NCBI RefSeq assembly: GCF_000284115.1
Contig: NC_017080.1
Location: 1,320,001-1,352,000, forward strand
Direction: 5' to 3'
DNA: 32,000 nucleotides
From: Phycisphaera mikurensis NBRC 102666
GTDB lineage: Bacteria > Planctomycetota > Phycisphaerae > Phycisphaerales > Phycisphaeraceae
Shown here piece by piece: positions 4,201-32,000 of this stretch. Each line of letters begins with the position of its first letter. Within the stretch, counting starts at the first letter, position 1. The notes under the pieces were generated by a model. The model was not told the DNA's origin and ran no database searches. It saw nothing but the letters and a program-made list of their open reading frames with translations. The position numbers were made by a program, and so were the translations under genes.

Positions 4201-4246
4201 CCGCGGACCGTCGAGGAATCGGGCTCGTTTCGCGTCCGGTCCGCGG
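4201..4246. repeat. REP-like hairpin module (CCGCGGACCG - 26 nt - CGGTCCGCGG)
   Basis: 10-bp perfect inverted repeat in the intergenic region downstream of the ATPase gene. The same arms recur at 9595, 17471 and inside integron cassettes. Confidence 0.7.
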
Positions 4247-8393: not shown

Positions 8394-8576
8394 GGAAGAG
8401 ACGCAGCGACGCTCGGAGGACGCGCGTGCGGAGAAGCTGCACGGGCCGCGAACATCGATGGCGGGGGGCTTCAGCGGGCTGGGTGAGCGAGGAAGCGAAG
8501 AAGTCAGGCAGCGCGTCGCCTCCGGCGACGAAGGCGCGCCCCGCAATCGCGTCCCGCTTCTCTATGTCTGACTTCG

Positions 8577-8720
8577 TCTCTCCCCCCGCCCCCGCCCGAC
8601 CCGCGACCCCGATCTTCGCGGTCCACGCAGCCCCTCCGCACGACACCGCCCCAAACGTCGCTTCCTTCCCCCCCCCTAGCTTCCCCACCCCGCAAGCCCC
8701 CTTCCTCCCCCAACAACCCC
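8577..8720 (+). promoter_or_regulatory. C-rich/G-poor leader upstream of ymdB (G-run-rich on the opposite strand)
   Basis: Runs such as tccccccgcccccgccc, cccctcc, ttcccccccc, ccccacccc, cccccttcctccccc lie immediately before ATG 8721. Confidence 0.5.
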
Positions 8721-9593
8721 ATGCGTATCGCCTTCCTCGGGGACGTCGTCGGTGCTCCCGGCCGACGGGCCCTCCTCCAGTGCCTCCCCGACCTCCGCGG
8801 GCCGCGGCGTGTGGACGTGGTGCTCGCCAATGTCGAGAACACCGCGTCGGGCAGCGGGCTGCTGCCCGACCAGCACAAGCGCTTCGCCGAGGCGGGGGTC
8901 GACGGCATGACGCTGGGGGACCACGCGTTCCGCAAGAACAAGATCCGCTCCGCGCTCGAATCCGCCGACGACCTCATCCGCCCCTTCAACCTGCCCGGCA
9001 CCGCCTGGGGCCGGGGCGCGATGACCCTCCGCAAGCCCGGCCTGCCCGCGGTGCACGTGATCACGCTGATGGGGCGGCTGTTCATGAACGGGCCGCAGGC
9101 GGGCGATCCGTTCGCCGCGCTGGACGGCTGGCTGGAGCGGCTGCACGCGCAGCACCGCGACGGCCCGCCGCCGGTGATCGTCGTCGAGATCCACGCCGAG
9201 GCGACCAGCGAGAAGGTCGCGCTGGGCTGGCACGCCAACGGTCGCGTTGCGGCGGTCGTGGGCACGCACACCCACGTGCCCACCGCCGACGCCCGCGTGC
9301 TGCCGCGGCCCGGGCCCGACCCGACGATCCCCGGTGATGTCCGGCCCGGCGTCGGCGGCACCGCCTACGTCACCGACCTGGGCATGACCGGGCCCGACGA
9401 CTCGTGCCTGGGCCGCCGCGTCGACCGCGTGCTCTCGTTCATGACCCGGTGCGTCCCGAGCCCCTTCGACGTCGCCGAGGGGAACCCGCACGCGCACGGC
9501 GTCCTCATCGACGTCGACGAGACCACCGGCCTGGCCACCGCGATCGAGCGCTACGACGTGGCGGCCGACGTCGGGGCGGCGCCCTTCGTCTAA
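8721..9593 (+). CDS. ymdB: YmdB-like metallophosphoesterase (2',3'-cyclic-nucleotide phosphodiesterase family)
   Basis: MRIAFLGDVVG, NVENTASGSG, TLGDH, EIHAEATSEK, GTHTHVPTAD, YVTDLGMTG. Confidence 0.88.
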   Translation: MRIAFLGDVVGAPGRRALLQCLPDLRGPRRVDVVLANVENTASGSGLLPDQHKRFAEAGVDGMTLGDHAFRKNKIRSALESADDLIRPFNLPGTAWGRGAMTLRKPGLPAVHVITLMGRLFMNGPQAGDPFAALDGWLERLHAQHRDGPPPVIVVEIHAEATSEKVALGWHANGRVAAVVGTHTHVPTADARVLPRPGPDPTIPGDVRPGVGGTAYVTDLGMTGPDDSCLGRRVDRVLSFMTRCVPSPFDVAEGNPHAHGVLIDVDETTGLATAIERYDVAADVGAAPFV

Positions 9594-9594
9594 G

Positions 9595-9640
9595 CCGCGG
9601 ACCGCGCCGCTTTCTGCGCCGACGGGGCGACGGTCCGCGG
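9595..9640. repeat. REP-like hairpin module (CCGCGGACCG - 26 nt - CGGTCCGCGG)
   Basis: Starts 2 nt after the ymdB stop. Same arms as 4201-4246. Confidence 0.7.
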
Positions 9641-17462: not shown

Positions 17463-17894
17463 TCAGGAAACCGCGGACCGCGGCGGCGTCGGCCCCGGAG
17501 GGACGGCGGTCCGCGGCGTCGCCGAGGCGGGCGTCACCGGCGGCGCGGCGGGCGAGCCGGGTGCGACGGCAGCGGCCGAAGCGGGCGGCGGGCCGGCGGG
17601 CGGCGGCGGAAGGGCGCTACGCACGCCCATCCAGGCCGCCCCGGCCGCCGCCGCGGCGAGCCAGAGCCCCGCCACCAGCAGCGCGAGCGGCCAGCCGATG
17701 AGACGGGCCAGCAGCCACATGAACGCCACCGTCAGCACGAGCCCCGCCAGCGAGGCGAGCGACACCGCGAGGGACCACCACGTCAGCACCCGCAGCACCC
17801 TCCCGCCCACGTGCAGCGCCACGCGTCCCTCGGCCTCCGCCAGGCCGGCGAGGTTGACGGCGAAGGCGTTGAGTCGACGGAAGAGCTGATTCAT
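17463..17894 (-). CDS. YqjE / holin-X-like (DUF1469-type) inner membrane protein
   Basis: Amphipathic N-terminus followed by two TM helices, located directly after a DUF883 gene. The C-terminal tail overlaps a REP-like hairpin. Confidence 0.45.
   Translation of the reverse strand: MNQLFRRLNAFAVNLAGLAEAEGRVALHVGGRVLRVLTWWSLAVSLASLAGLVLTVAFMWLLARLIGWPLALLVAGLWLAAAAAGAAWMGVRSALPPPPAGPPPASAAAVAPGSPAAPPVTPASATPRTAVPPGPTPPRSAVS
17471..17516. repeat. REP-like hairpin module (CCGCGGACCG - 26 nt - CGGTCCGCGG)
   Basis: Same arms as 4201 and 9595. Lies within the last ~18 codons of the 17463-17894 ORF. Confidence 0.65.
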
Positions 17895-21642: not shown

Positions 21643-22888
21643 GTGCCGCGTCACGCAGCGATCCGCGGGTAGAGGCTCAGCAGCTTGATCCGGGCGTCAT
21701 CGGCGGTGAACTGCCAGTGCACGCCTCGCTGGCTCTGGTTGCGAGCGGCCGCCCAGGCTCGGGCCTCGCGATCGATCTCCTGGATGGTGTCGATCCGTCG
21801 GCCGAGGCATTGCCTTGAGAGCACACTCAGTTCGCACTCGGCGATGTTCAGCCACGAACCGTGGGCCGGCGTGTGCACCAGCTCGATCCGCTCAGCGATC
21901 CGCCGCGCCTCTGCTGCCTCGAATGCTTCGTACAACGACGCGATCCTGTGGGTGTTCAGGTTGTCGCACACCAGGCGGATCCGTGTCGCTGACTCATAAC
22001 GCGGGGCGTCCACCAACGCCTGGATCTGGTGGGCCCAGTCCGCCGCGGTGCGTCGCCGACTGGTCCGAACGTCCCGCCACCCAGCCAACGGCTCGGTGAA
22101 CATCCACAGGTTGCAGGTGCCGTGCCGCACGTACTCGTGGTCCTCGATCCGACGGCCGGTGGAGTCGGTGAAGCGGCGGCGGGTCTCGCCGATGAGCTGC
22201 TTGGGCTGCTCGTCCATGCACACCACCGGCAACGCCGGGTCGTAGGCGAGCGCGTACAGGCACAGCACCGCCTCCATGGCCGCGACGAAGGCCGCGGACT
22301 GCTCCGGCGGGATGCACCACATCTTCTTCTTCCACGGCTTCAGACCGTTTTTTGAAGAGCGCACCGCACCGCTTCGCGGCTGATCGAGTCCACCACCTTC
22401 AGCTCCACCAGCCGGCCGGCCAGGAGGCGGAGGCTCCAGCGATCATGGCCCTCGGGCGGGTCCGAGCAGGCGATCGTCACCAGCTGGGCTTCGCCTACGC
22501 CGTCGAGCTTGCGTTGCATCGCGCGGTCTTGAGGCTTGCGTTCGAGCAACGAGAGCGGACCGTCCTCGACAGCCTTCTTCCGCCAGCCCTCCACAGTGCG
22601 GACACCCGCGTCGAAAGCCTCGGCGATCTGCTCGTCGGTCCAGGCCGGAGCGCCGGGCGATTCGTCGCACTTGAGCAGGGCTTGCGCCCGCTGGATCTTC
22701 CAGCCGGCGACGCGGCCGCTGCGGACCAGCGTGGTCAGCTGCTCCCGCTCATCGTCGGTGAGGTGGACGTGGTAGAGCTTTCGATTCTTGAGCTTCGTGG
22801 CCATCCTTGGCCTCCTTTGCATTCGGTGGTGAACACGTGCACGGTGACGCTACACGCCTCACCCGCAGATCGGCGGCAGCCGCGGCAC
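21643..22888 (-). mobile_element. IS630-family insertion sequence (~1246 bp) flanked by a TA duplication
   Basis: Terminal inverted repeats GTGCCGCG...GATCCGCGGGT (21643-) and ACCCGCAGATC...CGCGGCAC (-22888). TA at 21641-21642 and 22889-22890. Encodes a DDE transposase. Confidence 0.85.
21651..22804 (-). CDS. IS630-family transposase, two frames joined by a -1 frameshift on an A6 run
   Basis: orfA (HTH, MATKLKNRKLYHVHLTDDEREQL, SD AAGGAGG upstream of ATG 22804) ends ...ALQKTV*. orfB continues NGLKPWKKKMWCIPP...DDE. The A6 slippery run is at 22348-22353. Confidence 0.85.
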
Positions 22889-24297
22889 TAGACGTGCGCG
22901 AGCTTGTTGAGCCCGTTGTAGGCGGCGACCTTGTACGCCTCGGCGAGGGTCGGGAAGTTGAACACGTTGTTGATGAAGAACTCCGCCGTGCCGTCCAGGC
23001 CCATGACGCACTGGCCGATGTGCACCAGCTCGGTCGCCCCGGTCCCCATGCAGTGCACGCCGAGGATCTTGTGGCTGTCCTGGTGGATCAGCATCTTGAG
23101 CATGCCCGTGCGGTCGCCGAGGATCTGGCCCCGGGCGATCTCCTCGTAGCGCGCGACGCCGGCCTCGTAGGGCACGCCCTCCTGGGTCAGCTGCTCCTCG
23201 GTCTTGCCGACCATCGAGATCTCCGGCACCGCGTAGATGCCGTAGGGAAACAGGTCGGTGTTGTAGTTCCCGACGTCCTGGCCGAAGGCGTGGGCGATCG
23301 CCCGGCGGCCCTGCTCCATGGAGGTGCTGGCCAGCGCCGGGAAGCCGATCACGTCGCCGGCGGCGTACACGTGGTCGACGTTGGTCTGGTAGTGCTCGTC
23401 GACCTTCAGCCGCTCGCGGTCGTCGAAGGTGATGCCCACGTTGTCCAGCCCCATCGCCCCGCACACGCCCTGGCGGCCGACGGCGTAGAGCAGCGTCTCG
23501 GCCTTGAGCTTCTTGCCGCTCTCCAGCGTCGCCTGGACGAGCGTGGACACCGTGCCGTTGCGGTGCTCCACCTTCTCGATGCGCTCGACCTTCTCGCCCA
23601 TCCGCAGCGTCACGCCCTGCTGCCGCATGAAGTACATGAAGGCGCCGGAGATCTCGCTGTCGAGAAAGCCCAGCAGCTGGTGTCGGCCCTCCACGAGCGT
23701 GACCTTCACCCCCAGCGTCGCCATGATCGACGCGTACTCGGTCCCGATCACGCCGCCGCCGACGACGATCATCGACTTGGGGAGGCGCTCGAGCTTCAGC
23801 AGGCCGTCGCTGGTGAAGATCGCGTCGTTGTCGAATGGGATGTCGGCGGGCTTGGCCGGCCGCGTGCCGCAGGAGACCAGGAAGCGGTCGGCGGTGACCA
23901 GCTGCGAGTCGCCGTCGCCCTGGATCATCAGCAGGTTGGGCCCCTCGAAGTGGGCCGTGCCCCAGATCAGATCGACGCCGTTCCGCTCGAACTGGCCGCG
24001 GATGACCTCCCACTCGTGGCGGATGACGTTCGAGGAGATCTCGATGAGATCGTGGATCGTGATCTTCTGCTTCGCCCGCGACGCCCCGCTGTAGTTGCCC
24101 CGCTGCGCGGCGCCGGTGAGGTGGAGCGCCGCCTCCCGCAGGCTCTTGCTGGGGATCGTCCCCGTGTTGATCTGGGCCCCGCCGAGCACGTTCTGCTTCT
24201 CGACGATGGCAACCGACTTGCCGAGCTTGGCCGCCTGGATGGCGCCCTTCTGCCCGGCGGGGCCGGTTCCGATGATGACGACGTCGTAGTGCTTCAT
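22888..24297 (-). CDS. sthA: soluble pyridine nucleotide transhydrogenase (Si-specific NAD(P)+ transhydrogenase)
   Basis: MKHYDVVIIGTGPAGQKGA..., GGAQINTGTIPSK (disulfide cysteines replaced as in SthA/UdhA), second GGGVIGTEYA, C-terminal dimerisation domain. SD GGAG before ATG 24297. Confidence 0.88.
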   Translation of the reverse strand: MKHYDVVIIGTGPAGQKGAIQAAKLGKSVAIVEKQNVLGGAQINTGTIPSKSLREAALHLTGAAQRGNYSGASRAKQKITIHDLIEISSNVIRHEWEVIRGQFERNGVDLIWGTAHFEGPNLLMIQGDGDSQLVTADRFLVSCGTRPAKPADIPFDNDAIFTSDGLLKLERLPKSMIVVGGGVIGTEYASIMATLGVKVTLVEGRHQLLGFLDSEISGAFMYFMRQQGVTLRMGEKVERIEKVEHRNGTVSTLVQATLESGKKLKAETLLYAVGRQGVCGAMGLDNVGITFDDRERLKVDEHYQTNVDHVYAAGDVIGFPALASTSMEQGRRAIAHAFGQDVGNYNTDLFPYGIYAVPEISMVGKTEEQLTQEGVPYEAGVARYEEIARGQILGDRTGMLKMLIHQDSHKILGVHCMGTGATELVHIGQCVMGLDGTAEFFINNVFNFPTLAEAYKVAAYNGLNKLAHV

Positions 24298-24484
24298 GGA
24301 GCTCCGCCTTCGGCGGGGTGAGGTTCGCGTGGTGGTTCGTCTCCGCCGGGGGGAACCCCCGGCTGCGCTCGCGGCGAGAACGCTCTGTCGAGGCGTGGCC
24401 CCGAGACATCAGGTGCGGCGAAACAGACGGCCGTGCACGGAGGCATCGGCGATTCGGCGTTCGCTGCGTGACGCGGCGGGCTCC

Positions 24485-24806
24485 GCCCGCACGCGTCCGC
24501 CGAGGTTATGCGTCGTTCCGCCGCGGACCGTGTGCCAAGGAACCCGCCACCCCTCCCGGTCCGCGGAGCGGACGCGAGAGCCGGGTCGCCCGCGATCCAG
24601 GCGCCGGGCCCGCAGAGCCGCCCGTGGCTCACCGCCCTCGGCGGTGTGGCCCGTCGGGCGCAGCCCGAGCGTCGGCCCGGGAGAGGGCGTCCCGACGCGT
24701 GGTTCGTGCAGCCCTCCCGGCTGTGACGAGGGAGCGCCCCGCCGCCCGGGTGCGCCGGCCGGAACCCTCGCACCCACCCGCGCAGCGTCGCGTCGCAACG
24801 CAGCGA
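24485..24806. repeat. structured GC-rich repeat, copy A (approximate boundaries)
   Basis: Shares with copies B and C the hairpin module 24521-24566, the GGGTCGC..GCGATCC stem, gtgcagccctcccg at 24706, the cccgggtgcgcc...cccacccg hairpin and the terminal palindrome gcgtcgcgtcgcaacgc. Confidence 0.7.
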
Positions 24807-24965
24807 ATACGCGTCCTCGAAAAGATTGACGCACTCAATGTCCCGGTCCTGGGTGCCACGCCCCTTGGGGGGTGGCGGGTGCCATCGGCCTGATCTGCGC
24901 TCGACCACCCCGCAAGCGGCGTGGCACCCGGCTCAGGAAGCGTCAGTCTTTTCGACGAAGCGTAT
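24807..24965. repeat. 159-bp imperfect palindrome (long hairpin flanked by A-run/T-run)
   Basis: Left arm atacgcgtcctcgaaaagattgacgcactc...gggtgccacgccccttggggggtgg mirrors right arm ccaccccgcaagcggcgtggcaccc...gcgtcagtcttttcgacgaagcgtat. Confidence 0.7.
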
Positions 24966-25305
24966 GAGTCGTCGGTCCCAGCACGCGTCATCGGCGCCCG
25001 TCTCGGGAGATCCGCGGACCGCGCGGCAAAACGCCGCCAACCCCTCCCCGTCCGCGGAGCCGGCGCTTCAGCCGGGTCGCCACGCGACCCGGGCAGGGCC
25101 GGGCTGCCACGCAGCACGGAACGGCCGCGCAGCGGACGGTGAGTCGGTCGCACGGCTTCCGGGATCCGAAGAGCGTCCCGAAGCATGGCTTGTGCAGCCC
25201 TCCCGCCCGTCGCGAGGCAGCGCCCCGTCGCCCGGGTGCGCCGTCCGGAACCCTCGCGCCCACCCGGGCAGCGTTGCGTTGCAACGCAGCTAATCCGTTG
25301 TCGGT
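24966..25305. repeat. structured GC-rich repeat, copy B (approximate boundaries)
   Basis: Hairpin module 25012-25057, stem CCGGGTCGC-CAC-GCGACCCGG, gtgcagccctcccg at 25192, palindrome gcgttgcgttgcaacgc. Confidence 0.7.
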
Positions 25306-25675
25306 TTCAACGAGCGTCATTGGGGTCCGTGTCCGAAGATCCGCGGACCGTGCGCGAAACCGCCGCCAACCGCGGACGGTCCGCCGAGCGGACGCGAAAG
25401 CCGGATCGCGTGCGATCCGGGCCTCGGCGCAGCCGACCGCCGGCGCAGCCGGCGCCACGGGCTCGCAGAGCCGCCCGTGGCTCAACGCCTTCGGCGATGT
25501 AGCCCGTCGGGCGCAGCCCGAGCGTCGGCCGGGAAGAGAGCGTCCCGAAGCGGGATTTGTGCAGCCCTCCCGCCCGTTAAGAGCGAGCGCCCCGGCGCCC
25601 GGGTTAGCCGTCCGGAACCCTCGCGCCCACCCGGCCCGCGTTGCGTCGCAACGCGGCTGTTTCGACTCGCGTTCC
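25306..25675. repeat. structured GC-rich repeat, copy C (approximate boundaries)
   Basis: Hairpin module 25341-25386 (one mismatch), stem CCGGATCGC-GT-GCGATCCGG, gtgcagccctcccg at 25559, palindrome cgcgttgcgtcgcaacgcgg. Confidence 0.7.
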
Positions 25676-25700
25676 AATCGGCGTGGCCGTTGCCCACCGA

Positions 25701-25769
25701 CGCCCGCTCCGTGCGGAAGCTGTAGTGCCCCCGCCGCAGCACCTCGTGAACCTCCGTCATCGACCCCAT
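25701..25769 (-). pseudogene. intI: integron integrase gene remnant (first ~23 codons only)
   Basis: MGSMTEVHEVLRRGHYSFRTERA matches the IntI N-terminus (IntI1 ...LRERIRYLHYSLRTEQAY...). It is divergent from and 172 bp away from the first GTTAGGC. No recombinase motifs follow in any frame. Confidence 0.6.
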
Positions 25770-25863
25770 GGGCTGAAGCTAGCTTCTGCCTTGCGTGCTG
25801 CCAATACGGCACGATATGCAGAATGTGTCGGGTCGCAACCCGCTCCAAGAGCCCCGCAGCCGC

Positions 25864-25892
25864 TTGACACCCGCCGCGACCCGGATCAAACT
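25864..25892 (+). promoter_or_regulatory. candidate cassette promoter (TTGACA - 17 nt - CAAACT)
   Basis: Perfect -35 hexamer at 25864-25869 pointing into the array. The -10 is weak, and the promoter rules of this lineage are unknown to me. Confidence 0.25.
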
Positions 25893-25910
25893 CACCCACG
25901 ACCGATCGAC

Positions 25911-25947
25911 GTTCTGCCGACAGCATTCTGTCGAATCACTGTTAGGC
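25911..25947 (+). other. attI-like primary recombination site ending in GTTAGGC
   Basis: First GTTRRRY core (25941-25947) is not preceded by an attC. Imperfect direct repeats GTTCTGCCGA / ATTCTGTCGA and inverted CGACAG/CTGTCG lie immediately upstream. Confidence 0.5.
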
Positions 25948-26174
25948 GGCGGTGAACGCGGTCCGCTCTTCCCCGTGTGTCCGCCGTCGCGCCCGTCCGC
26001 GGACCGTCGGGTGTTTCAGCCGTTCGTCCCCACGGTCCGCGGCGCGGTCGTGCGCTGCGGGCCGGCCGCACCTCGTCGGCCGAGCGTCGTCGCCGCTGGT
26101 TTCGCTGCGGCCGGCGTCGCGGCCCCGGCTCGTCGGCCATTCGGTCGGCGGCCCTCGCCGCTCTGCGCGTCGCC
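25948..26174 (+). repeat. cassette K1: 227-bp ORF-less paralogue (copy 1 of 6)
   Basis: Starts GGCGGTGAA, has hairpin CCGCGGACCGT(25997)-24 nt-ACGGTCCGCGG(26042), and a conserved 3' 130 nt ending GCGCGTCGCC. Confidence 0.85.
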
Positions 26175-26283
26175 GCCTAACCAGGCGTTGCAGCGGACCG
26201 GCAGGGTGTGGGGGTTTACAGTCCGCTCCGGGAACCAAGCCCGCCGTCAGTTCGGCCGGCCGCTGAACGCTTCTTCGTTAGGC
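26175..26283 (+). repeat. attC1
   Basis: GCCTAAC...GTTAGGC, 109 bp, imperfect palindrome. Identical to attC5. Confidence 0.85.
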
Positions 26284-26510
26284 GGCGGTAAAAGCGGTCC
26301 GTTCGTCCCCGTGTGTCCGCCGTCGCGCACGTCCGCGGACCGTCGGCGTTTTCGGCCGCTCGTCCCCACGGTCCGCGGCGCGGTCGTCCGCTGCGGGCCG
26401 GCCGTACCTCGTCCGCCGGGCGTCGTCGCCGCTCGTTCCGCTGCGGTCGGCGTCGCGGCCCGGGCTCGCCGGCCATTCGGTCGGCGGCCCTCGCCGCTCT
26501 GCGCGTCGCC
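26284..26510 (+). repeat. cassette K2: 227-bp ORF-less paralogue (copy 2)
   Basis: Same length and architecture as K1. Confidence 0.85.
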
Positions 26511-26619
26511 GCCTAACAAGGCGTTGCAGCGGACCGGCAGTGTTCCCGGGTTTACAGTGCTCCCCCGGTTCCAGCTGCGTCGTCGCTCTGGCCGGCCGCT
26601 GAACACTTCTTCGTTAGGC
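26511..26619 (+). repeat. attC2
   Basis: GCCTAAC...GTTAGGC, 109 bp. Differs from attC6 at 3 positions. Confidence 0.85.
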
Positions 26620-26853
26620 AGCACCCCAAGCGGGCTTGTGCTGCTGCGCACACGTGCCGTCTTGCCAACCCGCGGACCGTCGCGTGTTTCGGCCTTTGGG
26701 CCCCACGGTCCGCGGCGCCTTTACCCGCTGCGGGTCCGCCGTGTTCGGCTCCTTTGGCATCGCCGCAGGTCCAGCGCTGCGGTCGTTGTCGCGGCTCAAG
26801 CGCTGCTCCGCTCCCGGTCAGGGCGCCGCCGTCTTCCACGTCCCCCGCGTGCG
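26620..26853 (+). repeat. cassette K3: ORF-less, divergent relative of the 227-bp family and paralogue of K15
   Basis: Carries hairpin CCGCGGACCGT(26670)...ACGGTCCGCGG(26715). The first ~110 nt align with 31701-31810. Confidence 0.75.
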
Positions 26854-26962
26854 GCCTAACCAGGCGTTGCAGCGGACCGGCAGTGCTCGCGGGTTTACAC
26901 TGCTCTCCCGGTTCCAGCTGCGTCGTCGCTCTGGCCGGCCGCTGAACACTTCTTCGTTAGGC
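26854..26962 (+). repeat. attC3
   Basis: GCCTAAC...GTTAGGC, 109 bp. Confidence 0.85.
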
Positions 26963-26969
26963 CGCATCT

Positions 26970-27395
26970 TTGAGCGCTTCCGAGACATTCCGCCTCAAGC
27001 AGCTGGAGGAGCTCCAGGAGCTCATCCCGTCTCTGATCGACAGGCTCAACGAGATCGCCCGCGTCGATCCAACCAGATCCGGCCCAGGTGATCCCGCAGT
27101 CAACCCGTCACTGCTTGCATCTTGTCGGGCGGCAATCCCCTTGCTGCAACGTGCAACCGAGCAGTGCCACACTTTGGGTCCATCGAGCGACACGGCTCAC
27201 CACACAAGGAAGAAGAAGCCGAAACGTACCGCTGCACAGATTGCCGCAAAAAAGAAGAAGATCCGCATGACGGGGATACCGAAGGGTGGAAAGAAGCGTA
27301 AAAAGTCAAAGCTACCGCAAGGCGGACCAGCTCGCAGCGTGCGAACTGTCGGGAGCGGGCAAACGTTGAAGCCGGGAAGCCACCGCTCCACGTAA
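26970..27395 (+). CDS. cassette K4: orphan 141-aa protein with N-terminal coiled coil and lysine-rich basic C-terminal half
   Basis: ORF fills the cassette, with TTG start 8 nt after the attC3 core and stop 4 nt before R'' of attC4. Visibly AT-richer than the host. Contains KKKPKRTAAQIAAKKKKIR...GGKKRKKSK. Confidence 0.6.
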   Translation: MSASETFRLKQLEELQELIPSLIDRLNEIARVDPTRSGPGDPAVNPSLLASCRAAIPLLQRATEQCHTLGPSSDTAHHTRKKKPKRTAAQIAAKKKKIRMTGIPKGGKKRKKSKLPQGGPARSVRTVGSGQTLKPGSHRST

Positions 27396-27399
27396 TGCG

Positions 27400-27509
27400 G
27401 CCTAACCAGGCGTTGCAGCGGACCGGCAGTGTGTGGGGGTTCACAGTGCATTCCCCGGTTCCAGCTGCGGCGTCGCTCTCGCCGGCCGCTGAACACTTCT
27501 TCGTTAGGC
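27400..27509 (+). repeat. attC4
   Basis: GCCTAAC...GTTAGGC, 110 bp. Confidence 0.85.
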
Positions 27510-27736
27510 GGCGGTGACACCGGTTCGTCCTTCCCTGTGTGTCTGCCGTCGCGCATGTCCGCGGACCGTCGGGGGTTTCGGCCGCTTGCCCCCGCGGTCC
27601 GCGGCGCGGTCGTCCGCTGCGGGCTGGCCGCACCTCGTCGGCCGGGCGTCGTCGCCGCTCGTTTCGCTGCGGTCGGCGTCGCGGCCCCGGCTCGCCGGCC
27701 ATCCGGTCGGCGGCCCTCGCCGCTCTGCGCGTCGCC
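27510..27736 (+). repeat. cassette K5: 227-bp ORF-less paralogue (copy 3)
   Basis: 23 substitutions and no indels versus K1 by hand alignment. Confidence 0.85.
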
Positions 27737-27845
27737 GCCTAACCAGGCGTTGCAGCGGACCGGCAGGGTGTGGGGGTTTACAGTCCGCTCCGGGAACCAA
27801 GCCCGCCGTCAGTTCGGCCGGCCGCTGAACGCTTCTTCGTTAGGC
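27737..27845 (+). repeat. attC5
   Basis: GCCTAAC...GTTAGGC, 109 bp. Identical to attC1. Confidence 0.85.
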
Positions 27846-28072
27846 GGCGGTGAAAGCTGTCCGTCCATCCCCGTGTGTCCGCCGTCGCGCACGTCCGCGG
27901 ACCGTCGGCGGTTCCAGCGGCACGTGCCCACGGTCCGCGGCGCGGTCGTCCGCCGCGGGCCGGCCGTACCTCGTCGGCCGGGCGTCGTCGCCGCCCGTTT
28001 CGCTGCGGTCGGCGTCGCGGCCCCGGCTCGTCGGCCATCCGGTCGGCGGCCCTCGCCGCTCTGCGCGTCGCC
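27846..28072 (+). repeat. cassette K6: 227-bp ORF-less paralogue (copy 4)
   Basis: 17 substitutions and no indels versus K2 by hand alignment. Confidence 0.85.
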
Positions 28073-28181
28073 GCCTAACAAGGCGTTGCAGCGGACCGGC
28101 AGTGTTCCCGGGTTTACAGTGCTCCCCCGGCTCCAGCTGCGTCGTCGCTCTGGCCGGCCGCTGAACTCCTCTTCGTTAGGC
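28073..28181 (+). repeat. attC6
   Basis: GCCTAAC...GTTAGGC, 109 bp. Confidence 0.85.
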
Positions 28182-28186
28182 GTACC

Positions 28187-28540
28187 TTGGCGAAACCGAC
28201 TTCCGAAGCGGCTTGGCTCGGAGCGTTCGCCGCGATCGTCTGGACGTTCCCCATCGTTGCTCTATTTGCGCTTCTGTATCGGTTCCCGATTCCTTTCGCC
28301 GGGTACATGACCGGACCGGCAGCGGTTCCCCCGGCCATGCTGGCTGTCTTGTTCTACGGTGCGCTCGGGGGCGTCTTCGTTCAGCTCCTCGCGGGCTTGG
28401 GTGCCGGTGTGGCCGCTTGGTGGTGGGCCCGTCCCAATCGCAGCCGTAGCAACCGCTACGCAGTGGCGTTGGCCGCTCTTGCAGCCGTCCCGGGTGTGCT
28501 GCTCCTGGCAGTCCTCGACCACCTCATCGGCCCGTGGTGA
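28187..28540 (+). CDS. cassette K7: small multi-TM membrane protein (117 aa)
   Basis: ORF fills the cassette, with candidate TTG start 6 nt after the attC6 core and stop 4 nt before R'' of attC7. Three to four hydrophobic helices. Start is uncertain. Confidence 0.5.
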   Translation: MAKPTSEAAWLGAFAAIVWTFPIVALFALLYRFPIPFAGYMTGPAAVPPAMLAVLFYGALGGVFVQLLAGLGAGVAAWWWARPNRSRSNRYAVALAALAAVPGVLLLAVLDHLIGPW

Positions 28541-28544
28541 GCAC

Positions 28545-28653
28545 GCCTAACCAGGCGTTGCAGCGGGCCGGCAGTGTGTGGGGGTTTATGCTGCTCTCCC
28601 GATTCCAGCCGCGTCGTCACTCTGGCCGGCCGCTGAACGCTTCTTCGTTACGC
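28545..28653 (+). repeat. attC7 (variant core GTTACGC)
   Basis: GCCTAAC...GTTACGC, 109 bp. Confidence 0.8.
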
Positions 28654-28665
28654 GGCTTGAGCACT

Positions 28666-28992
28666 ATGTTGGTACTGCTCATGCTGGCCACTCAAGCGTT
28701 GCTGATCGGCGTCGCGGTGGGTGTGCGGACTTCTCGGACCGAGCGTTCTGCCAAGGATTCTGCTGCGCTCGCTTGGGGGTGGGCGCTGGCTGTCCTCACT
28801 CTGACCCTGTTCATCTTCGCAGTCGTGTACGAGGCTGTATCACCTCGACCGCTCGGGCACCCGGTCCTGGTCGCGCTCTCGTTCACGCTCTTGTGGTGGT
28901 TCATTCCCCCAATTCTTCCTGCCGTCGCGGGGCTTGCGGCAGCGAGCTGTTGGATTCTGCGTCGTGCTCGCCCGCAAGGTCCGGCCGCCTAA
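28666..28992 (+). CDS. cassette K8: small multi-TM membrane protein (~108 aa)
   Basis: ATG 28666 (or TTG 28657). Product MLVLLMLATQALLIGVAVGV.... The stop TAA is the TAA of GCCTAAC in attC8. Confidence 0.5.
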   Translation: MLVLLMLATQALLIGVAVGVRTSRTERSAKDSAALAWGWALAVLTLTLFIFAVVYEAVSPRPLGHPVLVALSFTLLWWFIPPILPAVAGLAAASCWILRRARPQGPAA

Positions 28993-29094
28993 CCAGGCGT
29001 TGCAGCGGGCCGGCAGTGTGTGCGGGTTTACACTGCTTTCCCAGTTCCAGCCCGCCGTCGCTCTGGCCGGCCGCTGAACGCTTCTTCGTTAGGC
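28987..29094 (+). repeat. attC8
   Basis: GCCTAAC...GTTAGGC, 108 bp. Confidence 0.85.
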
Positions 29095-29321
29095 GGCGGT
29101 GAACGCGGTCCGTTCGCCCCCGTGTGTCAGCCGTCACGCACGTCCGCGGACCGTCGGCGTGTTCGGCCGCTCGTCCCCACGGTCCGCGGCGCGGTCGTCC
29201 GCTGCGGGCCGGCCGTACCTCGTCCGCCGGGCGTCGTCGCCGCTCGTTCCGCTGCGGTCGGCGTCGCGGCCCCGGCTCGTCGGCCATCCGGTCGGCGGCC
29301 CTCGCCGCTCTGCGCGTCGCC
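29095..29321 (+). repeat. cassette K9: 227-bp ORF-less paralogue (copy 5)
   Basis: Same length and architecture. Closest to K2. Confidence 0.85.
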
Positions 29322-29430
29322 GCCTAACAAGGTGTTGCAGCGGACCGGCAGGGTGTGCGGGTTTACAGTGCTCTTCCTGTTCCAGGCCCGCCGTCAGTTC
29401 GGCCGGCCGCTGAACACTTCTTCGTTAGGC
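29322..29430 (+). repeat. attC9
   Basis: GCCTAAC...GTTAGGC, 109 bp. Confidence 0.85.
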
Positions 29431-29657
29431 GGCGGTGAAAGCGGTCCGTTCTTCCCCGTGGGTCCGCCGTCGCGCATGTCCGCGGACCGTCGGCGAGTTC
29501 GGCCACTCCTCCCCACGGTCCGCGGCGCGGTCGTCCGCTGCGGGCCGGCCGTGTCTCGTCGGCCGGGCGTCGTCGCCGCTCGTTTCGCTGCGGTCGGCGT
29601 CGCGGCCCCGGCTCGCCGGCCATCCGGTCGGCGGCCCTCGCCGCTCTTCGCGTCGCC
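29431..29657 (+). repeat. cassette K10: 227-bp ORF-less paralogue (copy 6)
   Basis: Same length and architecture. Confidence 0.85.
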
Positions 29658-29766
29658 GCCTAACCAGGCGTTGCAGCGGACCGGCAGCGTGTGCGGCTTT
29701 ACAGTGCTCTCCCGGTTCCAGCTGCGTCGTCGCTCTGGCCGGCCGCTGAACGCTTCTTCGTTAGGC
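29658..29766 (+). repeat. attC10
   Basis: GCCTAAC...GTTAGGC, 109 bp. Confidence 0.85.
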
Positions 29767-29803
29767 CGCGGCAGCATTGCTGTGTCTCCCAGGAACTGCA
29801 ACA

Positions 29804-30166
29804 ATGAGTCGGCGTAGCAGAGCCAAATTGGTGACGAAGAGCTCGGACATCGGCAGCCGGATCCTCAACTCTGCTCAGCTGAACGCTAGTTCTGCTGTCC
29901 CACGTTTCCTAGCTGGCCGCGAAGCACTAGAGTCCGCTCCTGCTCCAGCGGCCAAAAAGAAGAAAAAGCGTATCAAGCTGAAGCCGTTCGCCTGCGACGT
30001 TTGCGGCGAAGTTTTCAGCCTTAAAGCTATGGATAGGCACAGGAGGCGTGTCCATTTCATACCAACGCCACAACAGTCTGCTATGGTGAAATGCCCGCAC
30101 TGCCGGAAAGCCGTGAGGCAGTGCAATCTGCGAAAGCACATGGAAAAAATGCATCCTCAATCTTGA
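29804..30166 (+). CDS. cassette K11: 120-aa protein with poly-lysine tract and two tandem C2H2-type zinc fingers
   Basis: MSRRSRAKL...AAKKKKKRIKLKP, then FACDVCGEVFSLKAMDRHRRRVH and VKCPHCRKAVRQCNLRKHMEKMH (both C-X2-C-X11-H-X4-H). AT-richer than the host. Confidence 0.65.
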   Translation: MSRRSRAKLVTKSSDIGSRILNSAQLNASSAVPRFLAGREALESAPAPAAKKKKKRIKLKPFACDVCGEVFSLKAMDRHRRRVHFIPTPQQSAMVKCPHCRKAVRQCNLRKHMEKMHPQS

Positions 30167-30187
30167 AGGCCAGCTCGCCGGCGTGCG

Positions 30188-30297
30188 GCCTAACTCGGCG
30201 TTGCAGCGGACCGGCAGTGTGTGCGGGTTTACAGTGCTCCCCCCGGGTCCAGCTGCGTCGTCGCTCTGGCCGGCCGCTGAACGCTTCTTCGTTAGGC
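30188..30297 (+). repeat. attC11
   Basis: GCCTAAC...GTTAGGC, 110 bp. Confidence 0.85.
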
Positions 30298-30461
30298 CGC
30301 ACCAAACCGGGCGGTTGGGCTCCGCTCCTCCGCACGCTGGCGGGCGTCGCCGCCGGCCGCTGCTCGGCGTGCTCGCCGCTCGGTTCGCTGCGTCGGCCGC
30401 CGCGGCTCCAGCTCGCCGGTGCTCTCGTGCAGCCGGGCCCGTGGCACATCCGCCGCGTGCG
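30298..30461 (+). repeat. cassette K12: short (164 bp) ORF-less cassette related to the 3' half of the 227-bp family
   Basis: gggcgtcgccgcc...gctcggttcgctgcgtcggcc resembles gggcgtcgtcgccgctcgtttcgctgcggtcggc. Lacks the hairpin module. Confidence 0.6.
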
Positions 30462-30570
30462 GCCTAACCAGGCAATGCAGCGGACCGGGGGTGTGCGCGG
30501 GTTTACGGTGCTCGCCCGGATCCGGGCCGCCGTTGTGGTTGCCCGGCCGCTGATTGCTTCTTCGTTAGGC
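30462..30570 (+). repeat. attC12
   Basis: GCCTAAC...GTTAGGC, 109 bp. More divergent inner arms (ggcaatgcagcgg / ccgctgattgc). Confidence 0.8.
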
Positions 30571-30648
30571 CGCACCAGTGGAGTGGAAATGCACTGCGCT
30601 ATGCCGCAATCACCAAGTGCCGTCTCTTCTTCTCTGGTGCGTTTCACA

Positions 30649-31212
30649 TCAGCTGCGTGGAGCGATCCTCGACTCTGCTACACCGGAGAAGAGTGATTCC
30701 AGTCCCTTCTGCACGCGTTGAGCGAGGTCCGGCGTTGCGGCAATATCACCTGCTGAGAGATTCGCGGGGAACGCCGGGAGCTGGACCGATCGATCGCCAA
30801 GTAGTACAACCCCCATCGTGCGGAGTACCTCGCGAAGTGCCGCGTCCGCGTGATGCGCGCCGGCGCGAGCGTTGATGACCAACACGGGCTTATCGGTCGC
30901 GGCGGGCACGCTCACGAGCCACTCCAGCGTGTTCTTTATATGGGCGCTGATCCCGTGTGCGTACTCCGGGCTTGCGAGCAGCAGGCCGTCGCATGCTGCG
31001 ACCCACTCTCGGCAAGATGTAACGGTGCGCGGCGGGTCCGCCTCCAGGTCGGGATTGAAGAGCGGCAGCCGGGCCGGTAGGTCGGAGGTCTCCAGCTCGG
31101 CGTACTCCGGGAAGAGAGTTCGCGTCGCTTTGAGAACGCGCGCATGAACAGAATTGGCACGCAGGCTGCCGCACAGACCGGCAATTCGGACTTCCGGGCG
31201 AGTACGTGGCAC
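30649..31212 (-). CDS. cassette K13: NAD(P)H-dependent FMN reductase family protein, inverted relative to the array
   Basis: VRIAGLCGSLRANS... and LLLASPEYAHGISAHIKNTLEWL (FMN_red SPEYN..xxxLKNxxDW-type motif). GTG start with GAGG 6 nt upstream. Confidence 0.75.
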   Translation of the reverse strand: MPRTRPEVRIAGLCGSLRANSVHARVLKATRTLFPEYAELETSDLPARLPLFNPDLEADPPRTVTSCREWVAACDGLLLASPEYAHGISAHIKNTLEWLVSVPAATDKPVLVINARAGAHHADAALREVLRTMGVVLLGDRSVQLPAFPANLSAGDIAATPDLAQRVQKGLESLFSGVAESRIAPRS

Positions 31213-31373
31213 AGGACGCCTCGACTGTACCGCCGCGAGGGACGTCTCTTCTATCAGGTCCGCGGGGCCGTTAGGGACGCTCCTGCCATGTGAAAGCCGC
31301 GGACCGTCACATCCTCAAGCGTTCCGGCGCTCCAGTGCGCGGCGCGGTCGTTTCTCGCGGGCCCCCGCGTGCG

Positions 31374-31482
31374 GCCTAACCAGGCGTTGCAGCGAACCGG
31401 CAGTGCTCGCAGGTTTACACTGCTCCTCCGGTTCTAGCTGCGTCGTCGCTCTGGCCGGCCGCTGAACGCTTCTTCGTTGGGC
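31374..31482 (+). repeat. attC13 (core GTTGGGC)
   Basis: GCCTAAC...GTTGGGC, 109 bp. Confidence 0.85.
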
Positions 31483-31537
31483 GGCCATTTCTCCAACTCG
31501 TTCCACAATCCGCCTGATCTCCTCCATCATCGCGACC

Positions 31538-31684
31538 GTGGCCTGCCTCGCGTTGCTGGCTTCGCTCTTGGTGCTCCTGCTTGCCCCACATCCGCTCATG
31601 GCACTGCCTGTCGTCATCTTCGGCGTCGGTGGGCTCGGTGCTGCGGCGGTGGCGTACTCCGCCAGTCGCGCTCCCGCCGCCTAA
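31538..31684 (+). CDS. cassette K14: possible 48-aa two-TM peptide
   Basis: GTG 31538. Product VACLALLASLLVLLLAPHPLMALPVVIFGVGGLGAAAVAY.... The stop is the TAA of GCCTAAC. Below the ORF-track size cut-off and the start is speculative. Confidence 0.3.
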   Translation: MACLALLASLLVLLLAPHPLMALPVVIFGVGGLGAAAVAYSASRAPAA

Positions 31685-31700
31685 CGCTTCTCCGTTGGGC
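31679..31700 (+). repeat. collapsed attC (R'' + 8 nt + R' only)
   Basis: GCCTAAC-gcttctcc-GTTGGGC. The whole L-box/variable region of the ~109-bp site is missing. Confidence 0.6.
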
Positions 31701-31873
31701 CGCACCCAAAGCGGGCTTGTGCTGCTGCGCACATCCGCCGTCTCGCCAAGCCGCGGACCGTCGCGGGTTTCGGCGTCCCGGCCCCACGGTCCGCGGCGCG
31801 GCGGCCTCGTGCGGTGCAGCTCCGCCGCTCATCCGGTCGCCCTCCCCGCCGCCTTCCACGCTCGCCGCGTGTG
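31701..31873 (+). repeat. cassette K15: shortened paralogue of K3, last recognisable cassette
   Basis: Starts CGCACCCAAAGCGGGCTTGTGCTGCTGCGCACA as K3 does. Hairpin 31751-31796. Ends gcgtgtg followed by the decayed GTCCTAC. Confidence 0.65.
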
Positions 31874-31880
31874 GTCCTAC
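31874..31880 (+). repeat. decayed inverse core (GTCCTAC) marking the end of the array
   Basis: Sits where GCCTAAC is expected after ...ccgcgtgtg. The downstream sequence no longer resembles an attC. Confidence 0.4.
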
Positions 31881-32000
31881 CGGTCGTCGGCCGTGCCCGC
31901 GGCGACCTGCAACACCGCCGCCGCCTGCGGCTGGGTCCTCCCCACGTCTTCGACCGCCGTGGGCCCCCGCGACCGCGAAACCATGGATCCGCCGTCCGTG

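What the first reader, a model, noticed from the sequence alone, without database searches (positions are those of the whole stretch)
25948..29657. Six exactly 227-bp ORF-less paralogous cassettes with a conserved 11-bp stem and a hypervariable loop
K1, K2, K5, K6, K9 and K10 are all 227 bp with no indels. Each has the perfect inverted repeat CCGCGGACCGT / ACGGTCCGCGG around a 24-nt loop that differs heavily between copies, for example cgggtgtttcagccgttcgtcccc, cggcggttccagcggcacgtgccc and cggcgagttcggccactcctcccc. A second variable patch lies at nt 7-25. The 3' ~130 nt is nearly invariant. Substitutions hit all codon positions and often adjacent bases, and no frame stands out in third-position GC. 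I therefore read them as non-coding units such as an sRNA, a protein-binding hairpin, or a promoter or terminator module, not genes. Six copies of an ORF-less cassette with strict length conservation and loop-focused divergence is not a described cassette class as far as I know.
Basis: partly seen in the sequence, partly recalled or inferred. Interest (0 to 1): 0.75.

Follow-up and report, generated by a model that had tools for sequence, protein, structure and literature searches.

The report
Gene-less integron cassettes carrying a REP-like hairpin
Six copies of a 227-bp non-coding integron cassette in Phycisphaera mikurensis each carry a copy of a palindromic hairpin that is scattered through the host chromosome; repeated gene-less cassettes are already a known class, so this is a new family of that class, not a new kind of element.

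Summary
Six 336-nt units (227-nt body plus 109-nt attC) align without indels. Five have a perfect 11-bp stem around a 24-nt loop; K5 has one T·G mismatch. The loop varies about five times more than the 3' body.

They are non-coding. GC is flat across codon positions in all six frames, pN/pS is 0.65-1.41, and there is no Pfam or protein homologue.

The interpretation needs correction on three points:
- The host is Phycisphaera mikurensis, and the array is a chromosomal integron with no intact intI in the window.
- The hairpin is not cassette-specific. The same 46-nt element lies at other, mainly intergenic, sites in the chromosome. Its arms equal the inner half of a GTAG-type REP/REPIN repeat found in other Planctomycetota. 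Conserved arms with a free spacer are the normal signature of such repeats.
- Paralogous, lineage-restricted non-coding cassettes are described in Vibrio, many with promoter activity.

A 227-nt homologue at 88% identity is the first cassette of an intact integron in a related metagenome genome, so the cassette is mobile. A 148-nt block identical between K1 and K5 shows gene conversion, which may explain the 3' near-invariance.

Function is unresolved. I favour a cis-acting hairpin in the sense transcript, or a selfish cassette.

The parts
25941..25947 (+). Array start: first GTTAGGC core site (attI/cassette junction), preceded by non-attC sequence
   Evidence: The homologous junction ...caatcaactGTTAGGCGGCGG lies next to an intact intI in L123/L126.
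25948..26174 (+). K1 body, 227 nt, non-coding; hairpin at 25997-26042; its attC is 26175-26283
26284..26510 (+). K2 body, 227 nt; hairpin at 26333-26378; attC 26511-26619
   Evidence: The attC bottom strand folds with R and L stems and an unpaired T, z=-4.0.
27510..27736 (+). K5 body, 227 nt; hairpin at 27559-27604 with 3' arm GCGGTCCGCGG (one T·G pair) and an extended stem, -37 kcal/mol; attC 27737-27845
27846..28072 (+). K6 body, 227 nt; hairpin at 27895-27940; attC 28073-28181
29095..29321 (+). K9 body, 227 nt; hairpin at 29144-29189; attC 29322-29430
29431..29657 (+). K10 body, 227 nt; hairpin at 29480-29525; attC 29658-29766
26620..26853 (+). K3: distant relative (~73-78% identity, with indels) carrying the identical hairpin arms at 26670-26715
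31701..31880 (+). Last cassette: K3-like body with a perfect hairpin at 31751-31796 and a degenerate terminal R'' site. This is the end of the array.
30298..30461 (+). K12: gene-less cassette related to the 3' module of K (79% over 53 nt) but without the hairpin
31297..31373 (+). Tail of cassette K13 (reverse-oriented FMN reductase gene): intact 5' arm, decayed 3' arm, then CGCGGTCGT before the attC
   Evidence: (D8)
4201..4246 (.). Chromosomal copy of the 46-nt palindrome, lying between two high-GC3 ORFs taken as genes
9595..9640 (.). Chromosomal copy of the 46-nt palindrome, 2 nt after the stop codon of ORF 8487-9593
17471..17516 (.). Chromosomal copy of the 46-nt palindrome; gene context ambiguous
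24460..25660 (-). Three tandem ~330-490-nt repeat elements. Each holds the same palindrome (24521-24566, 25012-25057, 25341-25386) in the opposite orientation to the K copies. They occupy the place where intI is expected.
   Evidence: (D6, D9, D12)

Best explanation
Identity (shown). K1, K2, K5, K6, K9 and K10 are paralogous gene-less integron cassettes in the chromosomal integron of Phycisphaera mikurensis. No intact intI is present in the window. Each is a 227-nt non-coding body plus a canonical 109-nt attC. The family can move by attC recombination: a homologue with the same 227-nt body is the first cassette of an intact integron in a related metagenome genome.

The hairpin (shown). It is one copy of a 46-nt palindromic element dispersed in the P. 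mikurensis chromosome. Its arms are identical to the inner half of a GTAG-type REP/REPIN repeat of other Planctomycetota.

Why the pattern looks as it does (inferred). Only the arms are constrained, and by sequence rather than by pairing alone. The spacer drifts freely, or is exchanged with other genomic copies. The 3' body looks invariant because it adjoins the attC and is homogenised among the paralogues by gene conversion.

Mechanism I commit to (inferred; about 0.35 on its own). The element acts in cis on the sense strand. As part of the cassette transcript it forms a very stable stem-loop (-28 to -37 kcal/mol), like the copies behind chromosomal genes. That stem-loop marks or protects transcript 3' ends between groups of coding cassettes. 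No protein and no trans-acting RNA is involved.
For: Cassette identity. Units are bounded by G|TTAGGC, with attC sites running from R'' GCCTAAC to R' GTTAGGC. The attC bottom strand folds with R and L stems and an extrahelical T, z=-4.0.

Host. The SthA protein is exactly Phycisphaera mikurensis WP_014436515.

Non-coding. GC1/2/3 is flat at 0.76-0.81, against GC3 0.96-0.98 in core genes. pN/pS is 0.65-1.41 in six frames. There are no Pfam hits. No gene was called in these cassettes in the public annotation.

Mobility. M1 (L124 57-391, also L123 and L126 9800-9466) has a 227-nt body at 88% identity. It lies directly after attI of an integron whose integrase P0001 carries both integrase domains. 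A K3-like module with the hairpin occurs in a third integron, L132.

Dispersed element. 46-nt copies lie at 4201, 9595 and 17471, in the tandem elements, and at L131 4618. The L131 loop, cggcggtttcgcc..., resembles the K loops. The arm motif is found 37 times against 5.0±2.1 expected. Other Planctomycetota carry GTAGGGTCCGC-N-CCGCGGACCG...CGGTCCGCGG-N-GCGGACCCTAC, again with variable spacers.

Arm constraint. There are 0-1 changes in 22 arm positions in each of K1-K10, M1, K3 and the last cassette, although K3 and the last cassette differ by about 25% elsewhere.

Strand-specific property. Bodies have A 3.8% and T 17.5%, against 12% and 13% in the genome. This is retained in M1 and in the K3-type relatives. 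The + strand fold uses many G·U pairs.

Gene conversion. K1 and K5 are identical over unit positions 202-349 but differ at 23 sites in positions 1-201. Variability falls steadily towards the attC.
Against: - No transcription data exist, and there is no U-tract after the stem. The terminator scan found only attC-derived sites, no more than chance.
- Only four chromosomal copies outside the integron region were seen in about 31 kb, and the whole genome was not counted.
- The P. mikurensis copies lack the GTAG flank, and no RAYT gene was looked for.
- Apart from the hairpin and the R'/R'' closing stem, no helix is supported: the covariation term is positive and M1 breaks the predicted 3' helices.
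- Absence of indels at about 10% divergence is only modest evidence of constraint. The K3-type relatives do differ in length.
- Arm conservation could come from conversion with genomic copies rather than from selection.
Confidence: 0.55

Rival explanations
1. Selfish or functionless cassettes. A short non-coding cassette with an efficient attC is copied within the array by integrase-mediated re-insertion of one- or two-cassette circles, or by unequal crossing-over. It is homogenised by gene conversion. The embedded palindrome is a passenger kept intact by conversion with genomic copies.
For: - Copies sit as three adjacent pairs with alternating attC types and precise attC boundaries.
- K1 and K5 share a 148-nt identical block.
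- The 3' body is no more conserved than the loop on the M1 branch: 16/126 against 2/24.
- The family is rare outside this genome. Apart from the window's own assemblies, the DNA-pattern and protein-profile searches found the 227-nt K family in one metagenome lineage only; a third integron (L132) carries only a K3-like module.
- Boucher et al. proposed this option for the Vibrio non-coding cassettes.
Against: - The strong A-depletion of one strand is retained across hosts and subfamilies.
- The arms stay perfect in M1, whose host shows no other copy in 21 kb, so conversion cannot easily maintain them there.
- There are no indels in seven sequences.
Confidence: 0.28
2. Promoter cassettes. As in Vibrio superintegrons, the gene-less cassettes carry sense-strand promoters that re-start transcription of the coding cassettes that follow each K group.
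For: - Most gene-less Vibrio cassettes have sense promoter activity, and this cannot be predicted in silico (PMC11014356).
- K groups precede each group of coding cassettes: K1-K3 before K4, K5-K6 before K7-K8, K9-K10 before K11.
- The K homologue is first in the M1 array.
Against: - No sigma-70-like site was found in 24000-32000 on either strand.
- The sense strand has about 9 A in 227 nt, which leaves no room for a -10 element.
- The only A-containing 5' segment is the most variable part of the cassette.
- Planctomycete promoter rules are unknown, so this evidence is weak.
Confidence: 0.12
3. A trans-acting small RNA family whose variable loop selects different targets.
For: - A stable stem presents a variable 24-nt loop.
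- Composition is strand-asymmetric.
- The whole unit folds better than shuffles, z=-3.4, although that includes the attC.
Against: - No promoter or terminator motif and no Rfam family.
- No supported structure outside the hairpin.
- Loop complements have no matches above shuffled controls in the 41 kb available. The one exception is a single 14-mer for K10, against a shuffled maximum of 13.
- The same variable-loop pattern occurs in chromosomal copies that lie behind genes.
Confidence: 0.05
4. A small protein is encoded, for example the 67-aa Arg-rich ORF ending at the TAA in R'', or an antisense basic protein.
For: ORFs are open in nearly all frames. The 67-aa frame has a slight excess of changes at its third position within the 3' body, 8 of 16. 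One gene caller predicted an antisense ORF over M1.
Against: - GC is flat at all codon positions in a genome where genes have GC3 of 0.96 or more.
- pN/pS is 0.78 for that frame and 0.65 at best.
- M1 changes fall 4/7/5 over the three phases (counted by hand from the alignment).
- No Pfam hit or protein homologue beyond the same DNA.
- Open frames are expected from the base composition alone.
Confidence: 0.03

Closest known systems
Paralogous non-coding (gene-less, ORF-less) cassettes of Vibrio sedentary chromosomal integrons (Boucher et al. 2006, PMC1382264; Blanco et al. 2024, PMC11014356; oral-metagenome ORF-less cassettes, PMC6557892)
   Same: No gene. Several paralogues in one array: six here, and six for the commonest non-coding cassette in Vibrio sp. 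DAT722. Close homologues (>80% identity) occur only in related hosts and are conserved over the whole length. No synonymous-type substitution pattern. Gene conversion and selfishness have both been discussed as explanations.
   Different: Different phylum (Planctomycetota, Phycisphaerae) and a 75% G+C host. No sigma-70-like promoter motif, and a sense strand almost devoid of A. The body contains a copy of a host-wide palindromic repeat. Promoter activity has not been tested.
REP / REPIN elements (repetitive extragenic palindromes, mobilised by RAYT transposases; known from Enterobacteria and Pseudomonas; from my own knowledge)
   Same: Short G+C-rich inverted arms with a variable spacer. Dispersed, with two of the four copies lying just after stop codons. 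The arms are identical to the inner half of a GTAG-flanked repeat found in several Planctomycetota genomes.
   Different: The P. mikurensis copies and the K cassettes lack the GTAG-containing outer half. Copy number in the genome and the presence of a RAYT gene are unknown. A REP inside an integron cassette has not been described, as far as I could find (one search found nothing for the sequence).
Intrinsic terminators and REP-type mRNA-stabilising stem-loops
   Same: A very stable G+C stem in the sense orientation. Chromosomal copies lie 2 and 24 nt after stop codons.
   Different: No U-tract. The stem sequence is conserved between sites, which terminators do not require.

Membership tests
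Integron gene cassette | Bounded by core sites GTTRRRY, with the recombination point G|TT, and lying in an array that starts at an attI junction | tested here: met
   GTTAGGC is at 25941, 26277, 26613 ... 31694. The same junction lies next to an intact intI in L123/L126.
Integron gene cassette | attC with R''/R' and L''/L' imperfect inverted repeats; the bottom strand folds with extrahelical bases | tested here: met
   R'' GCCTAAC and R' GTTAGGC. The DNA fold of the bottom strand gives -32.8 kcal/mol, z=-4.0, with an unpaired T in the L stem.
Integron gene cassette | An integron integrase is present next to the array | tested here: not met
   No integrase match in the window by tblastn with P0001. 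There is only a by-eye N-terminal remnant at about 25700-25772 on the minus strand. In this genome the array is an integrase-less remnant. Related integrons do have intI.
Integron gene cassette | The same cassette occurs at a different array position or in a different host, with identical boundaries | tested here: met
   M1 is the first cassette in another genome, with a 227-nt body.
Gene-less / non-coding cassette (criteria of Boucher 2006 and Blanco 2024) | No ORF longer than 150 bp (Boucher) or 210 bp (Blanco) | tested here: not met
   67-aa ORFs lie inside the body, and 86-104-aa ORFs run into the attC. This is expected from 78% G+C and a scarcity of A and T, so the length criterion is uninformative in this genome.
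Gene-less / non-coding cassette (criteria of Boucher 2006 and Blanco 2024) | No protein-level match, and homologues conserved over the whole length without a synonymous-site pattern | tested here: met
Gene-less cassette with promoter activity | A transcription start inside the cassette | not testable with these tools
   The consensus scan found nothing. In silico prediction is reported to be unreliable.
REP / REPIN | Short palindromic repeat; many copies; extragenic | tested here: inconclusive
   Four copies outside the integron region in about 31 kb. Two lie just after stop codons, one lies between ORFs, and one is ambiguous. The whole genome was not available.
REP / REPIN | Conserved GTAG tetranucleotide at the 5' end of each REP | tested here: not met
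   No GTAGGGTCCGC with up to 1 mismatch in the window. It is present in the related repeats of other Planctomycetota.
REP / REPIN | Two REPs in inverted orientation around a less conserved spacer | tested here: met
REP / REPIN | Cognate RAYT (Y1 transposase) gene in the genome | not tested
An ORF between two REPINs in L041 has no Pfam match.
Intrinsic terminator | G+C-rich stem followed by a U-tract | tested here: not met
   The stem is followed by CGCGGUCGUCC. The scan reports only attC-derived sites.
Diversity-generating retroelement variable region | Adenine-specific substitutions relative to a template repeat, with a reverse transcriptase nearby | tested here: not met
   The loops contain almost no A (7 of 240 nt), and substitutions are of all types. 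Neither a template repeat nor a reverse transcriptase was specifically searched for.
Known RNA families (Rfam 15) | A covariance-model match | tested here: not met

The most novel reading that the evidence does not exclude
The invariant arms are a sequence-specific binding site for a single-strand recombinase or other hairpin-binding protein. Two candidates are a RAYT-type enzyme and the integron integrase itself; the arm shares GCGGACCG with the L'' arm of these attC sites. On this reading the K cassettes link the integron to the host's REP system, either as vehicles that carry REP hairpins between genomes or as relics of how cassettes or attC sites are built from chromosomal palindromes. The loops would be diversified by ectopic conversion with the genomic copies.
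Probability: 0.08. Interest if true: 0.7.

Novelty: new member of a known kind. Interest (0 to 1): 0.35.

Why it matters
Gene-less cassettes have been studied almost only in Vibrio, which is A+T-rich, and there many act as promoters. This family shows the same population behaviour in a 75% G+C planctomycete: it is paralogous, restricted to one lineage, conserved between hosts, and makes up 9 of about 15 cassettes in the array. A sigma-70 promoter is hard to fit into this sequence, so the role of gene-less cassettes may not be the same everywhere. The embedded host-type palindrome also gives a concrete handle for asking two questions: where cassette DNA comes from, and whether REP-like hairpins travel on integron cassettes. 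The practical value is modest. It is a clean test case for RNA-end mapping and reporter assays, not a new mechanism.

Tried and rejected
- **Genome-contig scan with the bare hairpin pattern.** Its only use was to reveal the GTAG-flanked repeat in Planctomycetota.
- **Collection searches that found nothing.** The viral-contig scan, plasmid BLAST and Rfam at gathering and E-value thresholds all came back empty.
- **Protein-profile search with the antisense frame.** It returned only the M1 contig.
- **Literature.** Searches for the assembly accession and for the motif sequences found nothing relevant. 'Phycisphaera mikurensis' plus 'integron' gave one unrelated preprint.
- **tblastn for intI remnants.** Nothing significant, so the N-terminal remnant is a by-eye call only.
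- **RNA structure of the 3' body.** The folds rely on G·U pairs, have no net covariation, and are broken by M1.
- **Loop-complement target search.** Nothing above shuffled controls.
- **Promoter and terminator scan.** No promoter-like site. The terminator-like sites are no more than chance, and none lies at a hairpin.
- **RAYT between two REPINs in L041.** The ORF there has no Pfam match.
- **Readings rejected.** A tandem 112-codon repeat protein, even though 336 = 3×112 and one frame stays open through the units: pN/pS is 1.41. A DGR-type variable region: the loops contain almost no A. The K body as an inverted attC: R'...R'' is the same order on both strands and there is no L box.

Full report
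**Where the window comes from.** The SthA-like protein at 22888-24297 (minus strand) is an exact match to Phycisphaera mikurensis WP_014436515/BAM03296. It is also found on a 3.80-Mb contig and on draft contig JACHEL010000003.1. The window is about 75% G+C.

**The array.** From 25941 to about 31880 the sequence is an integron cassette array.
- A first GTTAGGC at 25941 is preceded by non-attC DNA. It is followed by about 15 cassettes, each ending in an attC that runs from R'' GCCTAAC to R' GTTAGGC.
- The attC bottom strand folds as expected, with R and L stems and an unpaired T (z=-4.0).
- No integrase is detectable in the window. The place where intI should lie is occupied by three tandem repeat elements at 24460-25660.
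- By eye, a possible integrase N-terminus (MGSMTEVHEVLRRGHYSFRTERA) starts at 25772 on the minus strand. This is not statistically supported.

**Check of the observation.** Six 336-nt units align without a gap, and each body is exactly 227 nt.
- The inverted repeat CCGCGGACCGT/ACGGTCCGCGG with a 24-nt spacer is perfect in five copies. K5 has one T·G pair.
- Across the six copies plus a metagenome homologue, the variable columns are: loop 14/24, 5' patch 20/43, 3' body 27/126, arms 1/22. Loop versus 3' body gives p=7e-4.
- The description is therefore accurate, apart from the K5 arm and a somewhat overstated 3' invariance.

**Coding or not.**
- Core genes of this genome have GC3 of 0.96-0.98 and GC2 of 0.39-0.55. 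The K bodies have 0.76-0.81 at all three positions in all six frames.
- Variable sites fall 17/18/12 over the three phases.
- Nei-Gojobori pN/pS over seven sequences is 0.65-1.41 for the six frames, and 0.78 for the 67-aa ORF that ends in the R'' TAA.
- None of the frames matches Pfam. A profile of the antisense frame finds only the homologous metagenome contig among 5.8 billion proteins. Public gene calls place no gene in these cassettes.
- The many open frames follow from base composition: A is 3.8% and T is 17.5% in the bodies.
- I conclude the cassettes are non-coding.

**The hairpin is not a cassette feature.**
- The same 46-nt element, with arms allowing one mismatch and always a 24-nt spacer, lies at 4201, at 9595 (2 nt after a stop codon) and at 17471. 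It occurs three times in the tandem elements, and at L131 4618, which is 24 nt after a gene end about 5 kb beyond the window.
- The L131 loop, cggcggtttcgcc..., resembles the K loops.
- The arm motif occurs 37 times in the window against 5.0±2.1 expected.
- In other Planctomycetota (Phycisphaerales, Tepidisphaeraceae, Alienimonas, Planctomycetaceae) the identical inner arms sit inside a longer repeat: GTAGGGTCCGC-N-CCGCGGACCG(T)...(A)CGGTCCGCGG-N-GCGGACCCTAC. That repeat has 20-26-nt spacers that differ from copy to copy.
- This is the architecture of REP doublets (REPINs). The comparison with REP/RAYT systems rests on my own knowledge.
- The P. mikurensis copies lack the GTAG half, so I call the element REP-like rather than a REP.
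- Conserved arms with a free spacer are the ordinary signature of this kind of repeat. The individual hairpins fold at -24 to -37 kcal/mol, with no common inner structure.

**Relatives and mobility.**
- A pattern built from the K hairpin and its flank found two JGI contigs from one organism, plus one unrelated contig.
- The K homologue M1 has a 227-nt body. It is 85-89% identical to the six K units over body plus attC (88.6% to K2). Its arms are perfect and its loop is only 2 nt from the K consensus.
- M1 lies immediately after attI of an integron with an intact integrase, P0001, next to pntAB.
- The nearest named relatives of that integrase are from Phycisphaeraceae, Phycisphaerales and Planctomycetota MAGs.
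- No other copy of the palindrome occurs in 21 kb of that genome.
- A K3-type module with the hairpin is present in a third integron, L132, fused behind an ORF after loss of an attC.
- Four other related integron loci have none.
- Inside the window, K3, the last cassette and K12 are distant relatives, and K13 carries a decayed hairpin tail. That makes 9 of about 15 cassettes gene-less members of one superfamily.

**What the substitution pattern means.**
- The arms show 0-1 changes in 22 positions in every member, including K3 and the last cassette, which differ by about 25% elsewhere. There are no compensatory pairs. The arm sequence, not just the pairing, is maintained.
- The 3' body is another matter. 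On the M1 branch it has changed at 16 of 126 positions, against 2 of 24 in the loop. The M1 changes break the 3' helices that RNAalifold predicts, and the covariation term is positive.
- K1 and K5 are identical over unit positions 202-349 (end of body, attC, and start of the next cassette) but differ at 23 sites in positions 1-201. Variability falls steadily towards the attC.
- The six copies form three adjacent pairs with alternating attC types, yet the bodies show a star-like phylogeny.
- Together this points to concerted evolution among the array paralogues, with tracts anchored in the similar attC sites. That alone could produce the 'invariant 3' part'.
- The extra loop variability inside P. 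mikurensis, but not on the M1 branch, fits either relaxed constraint or exchange with the many genomic copies. This is an inference from small numbers.
- Several loop changes (K1, K5, K6) extend the stem.

**A strand-specific property.** The sense strand of the K bodies is almost free of A, with T/A of 4.6. The same bias holds in M1 and, more weakly, in K3, K12, the last cassette and the L132 module, where T/A is 2.1-2.8. Flanking chromosome and the tandem elements are symmetric. This argues that one strand matters, as RNA or as single-stranded DNA. A mutational cause cannot be excluded.

**Function.**
- Nothing here shows function. No sigma-70-type promoter was found, and the terminator-like sites are at chance level and derive from the attC sites rather than the hairpins. 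There is no Rfam family, and no loop targets stand out.
- The chromosomal copies lie just behind genes in the same polarity: TTTC sits in the 5' half of the loop at 9595, at L131 4618 and in the K copies, though in the 3' half at 4201. On that basis I favour a cis-acting role of the stem-loop in the sense transcript, marking or protecting 3' ends between groups of coding cassettes.
- Nearly as likely, the cassettes are selfish and are kept similar by conversion.
- A promoter role, as shown for Vibrio gene-less cassettes (PMC11014356), cannot be excluded in silico. It fits this sequence poorly.

**Comparison with what is known.** Boucher et al. 2006 (PMC1382264) already describe non-coding cassettes that are paralogous, >80% conserved between related species, absent outside the lineage, and possibly selfish or regulatory. 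The K family matches that description point by point. It is therefore a new family of a known class, in a new phylum. Its added feature is a host-type palindromic repeat inside the cassette, for which I found no precedent.

Noticed in passing
window 24460-25660: Three tandem repeat elements of about 330-490 nt lie exactly where intI is expected (families D6, D9, D12). They are rich in hairpins, and each contains the 46-nt palindrome in the opposite orientation to the K copies. They match no Rfam family and hold only a spurious 312-aa ORF. Their nature is unknown.
   Followed up: partly
window ~25700-25772 (minus strand): Possible remnant of an integron-integrase N-terminus (MGSMTEVHEVLRRGHYSFRTERA), 169 nt from the attI junction. 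tblastn with a related IntI finds nothing significant, so the integron appears to have lost its integrase.
   Followed up: partly
window 26142-26290 and 27704-27852: K1 and K5 are 100% identical over 148 nt (end of body, whole attC, and the first 13 nt of the next cassette), although the rest of the bodies differ by about 11% (23 differences in unit positions 1-201). This is a recent gene-conversion or recombination tract within the array.
   Followed up: yes
window attC sites, e.g. 26529-26541; hairpin arms, e.g. 26333-26343: The L'' arm of these attC sites (GCAGCGGACCGGC) shares the 8-mer GCGGACCG with the hairpin arm CCGCGGACCGT. This could be chance in G+C-rich DNA, or it could hint at related protein recognition.
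   Followed up: no
L092 31-97, L103 4525-4591, L104 826-892, L050 54-120, L024 500-567, L026 2212-2284, L041 4492-4563 and 5264-5335, L056 665-736 and 1061-1130: A GTAG-flanked palindromic doublet (GTAGGGTCCGC-N-CCGCGGACCG ... CGGTCCGCGG-N-GCGGACCCTAC, spacer variable) recurs in several Planctomycetota genomes. It looks like an undescribed REPIN family.
   Followed up: partly
window 21651-22822 (minus strand): An IS630-type transposase in two overlapping ORFs (HTH_32 and DDE_3). The draft assembly contig ends inside it.
   Followed up: yes
window 29777-30166: Cassette K11 encodes a 129-aa protein with two C2H2-type zinc fingers (Pfam zf-C2H2_4, E=3e-7), preceded by a lysine-rich stretch. This is an unusual domain for a bacterial cassette.
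   Followed up: partly
L132 1091-1290 (minus strand): In a related integron a K3-like hairpin module is fused behind a coding cassette. Only CTAGGCC is left of the intervening attC, showing that attC loss can turn the module into a 3' tail of a gene cassette. The K13 tail in the window (31297-31373) looks similar.
   Followed up: partly
L124 3040-3700: Two tandem copies of a repeat of about 310 nt lie at the far end of the metagenome array that carries the K homologue. They show no obvious similarity to the window's tandem elements.
   Followed up: no
window cassette ends, e.g. 25941-25952 with 26170-26181, and 26956-26967 with 27395-27406: The first 10-12 nt of several cassettes are complementary to the sequence running into their own R'' site. 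In the circular cassette the R-box stem would therefore be 10-12 bp rather than 7 bp.
   Followed up: partly
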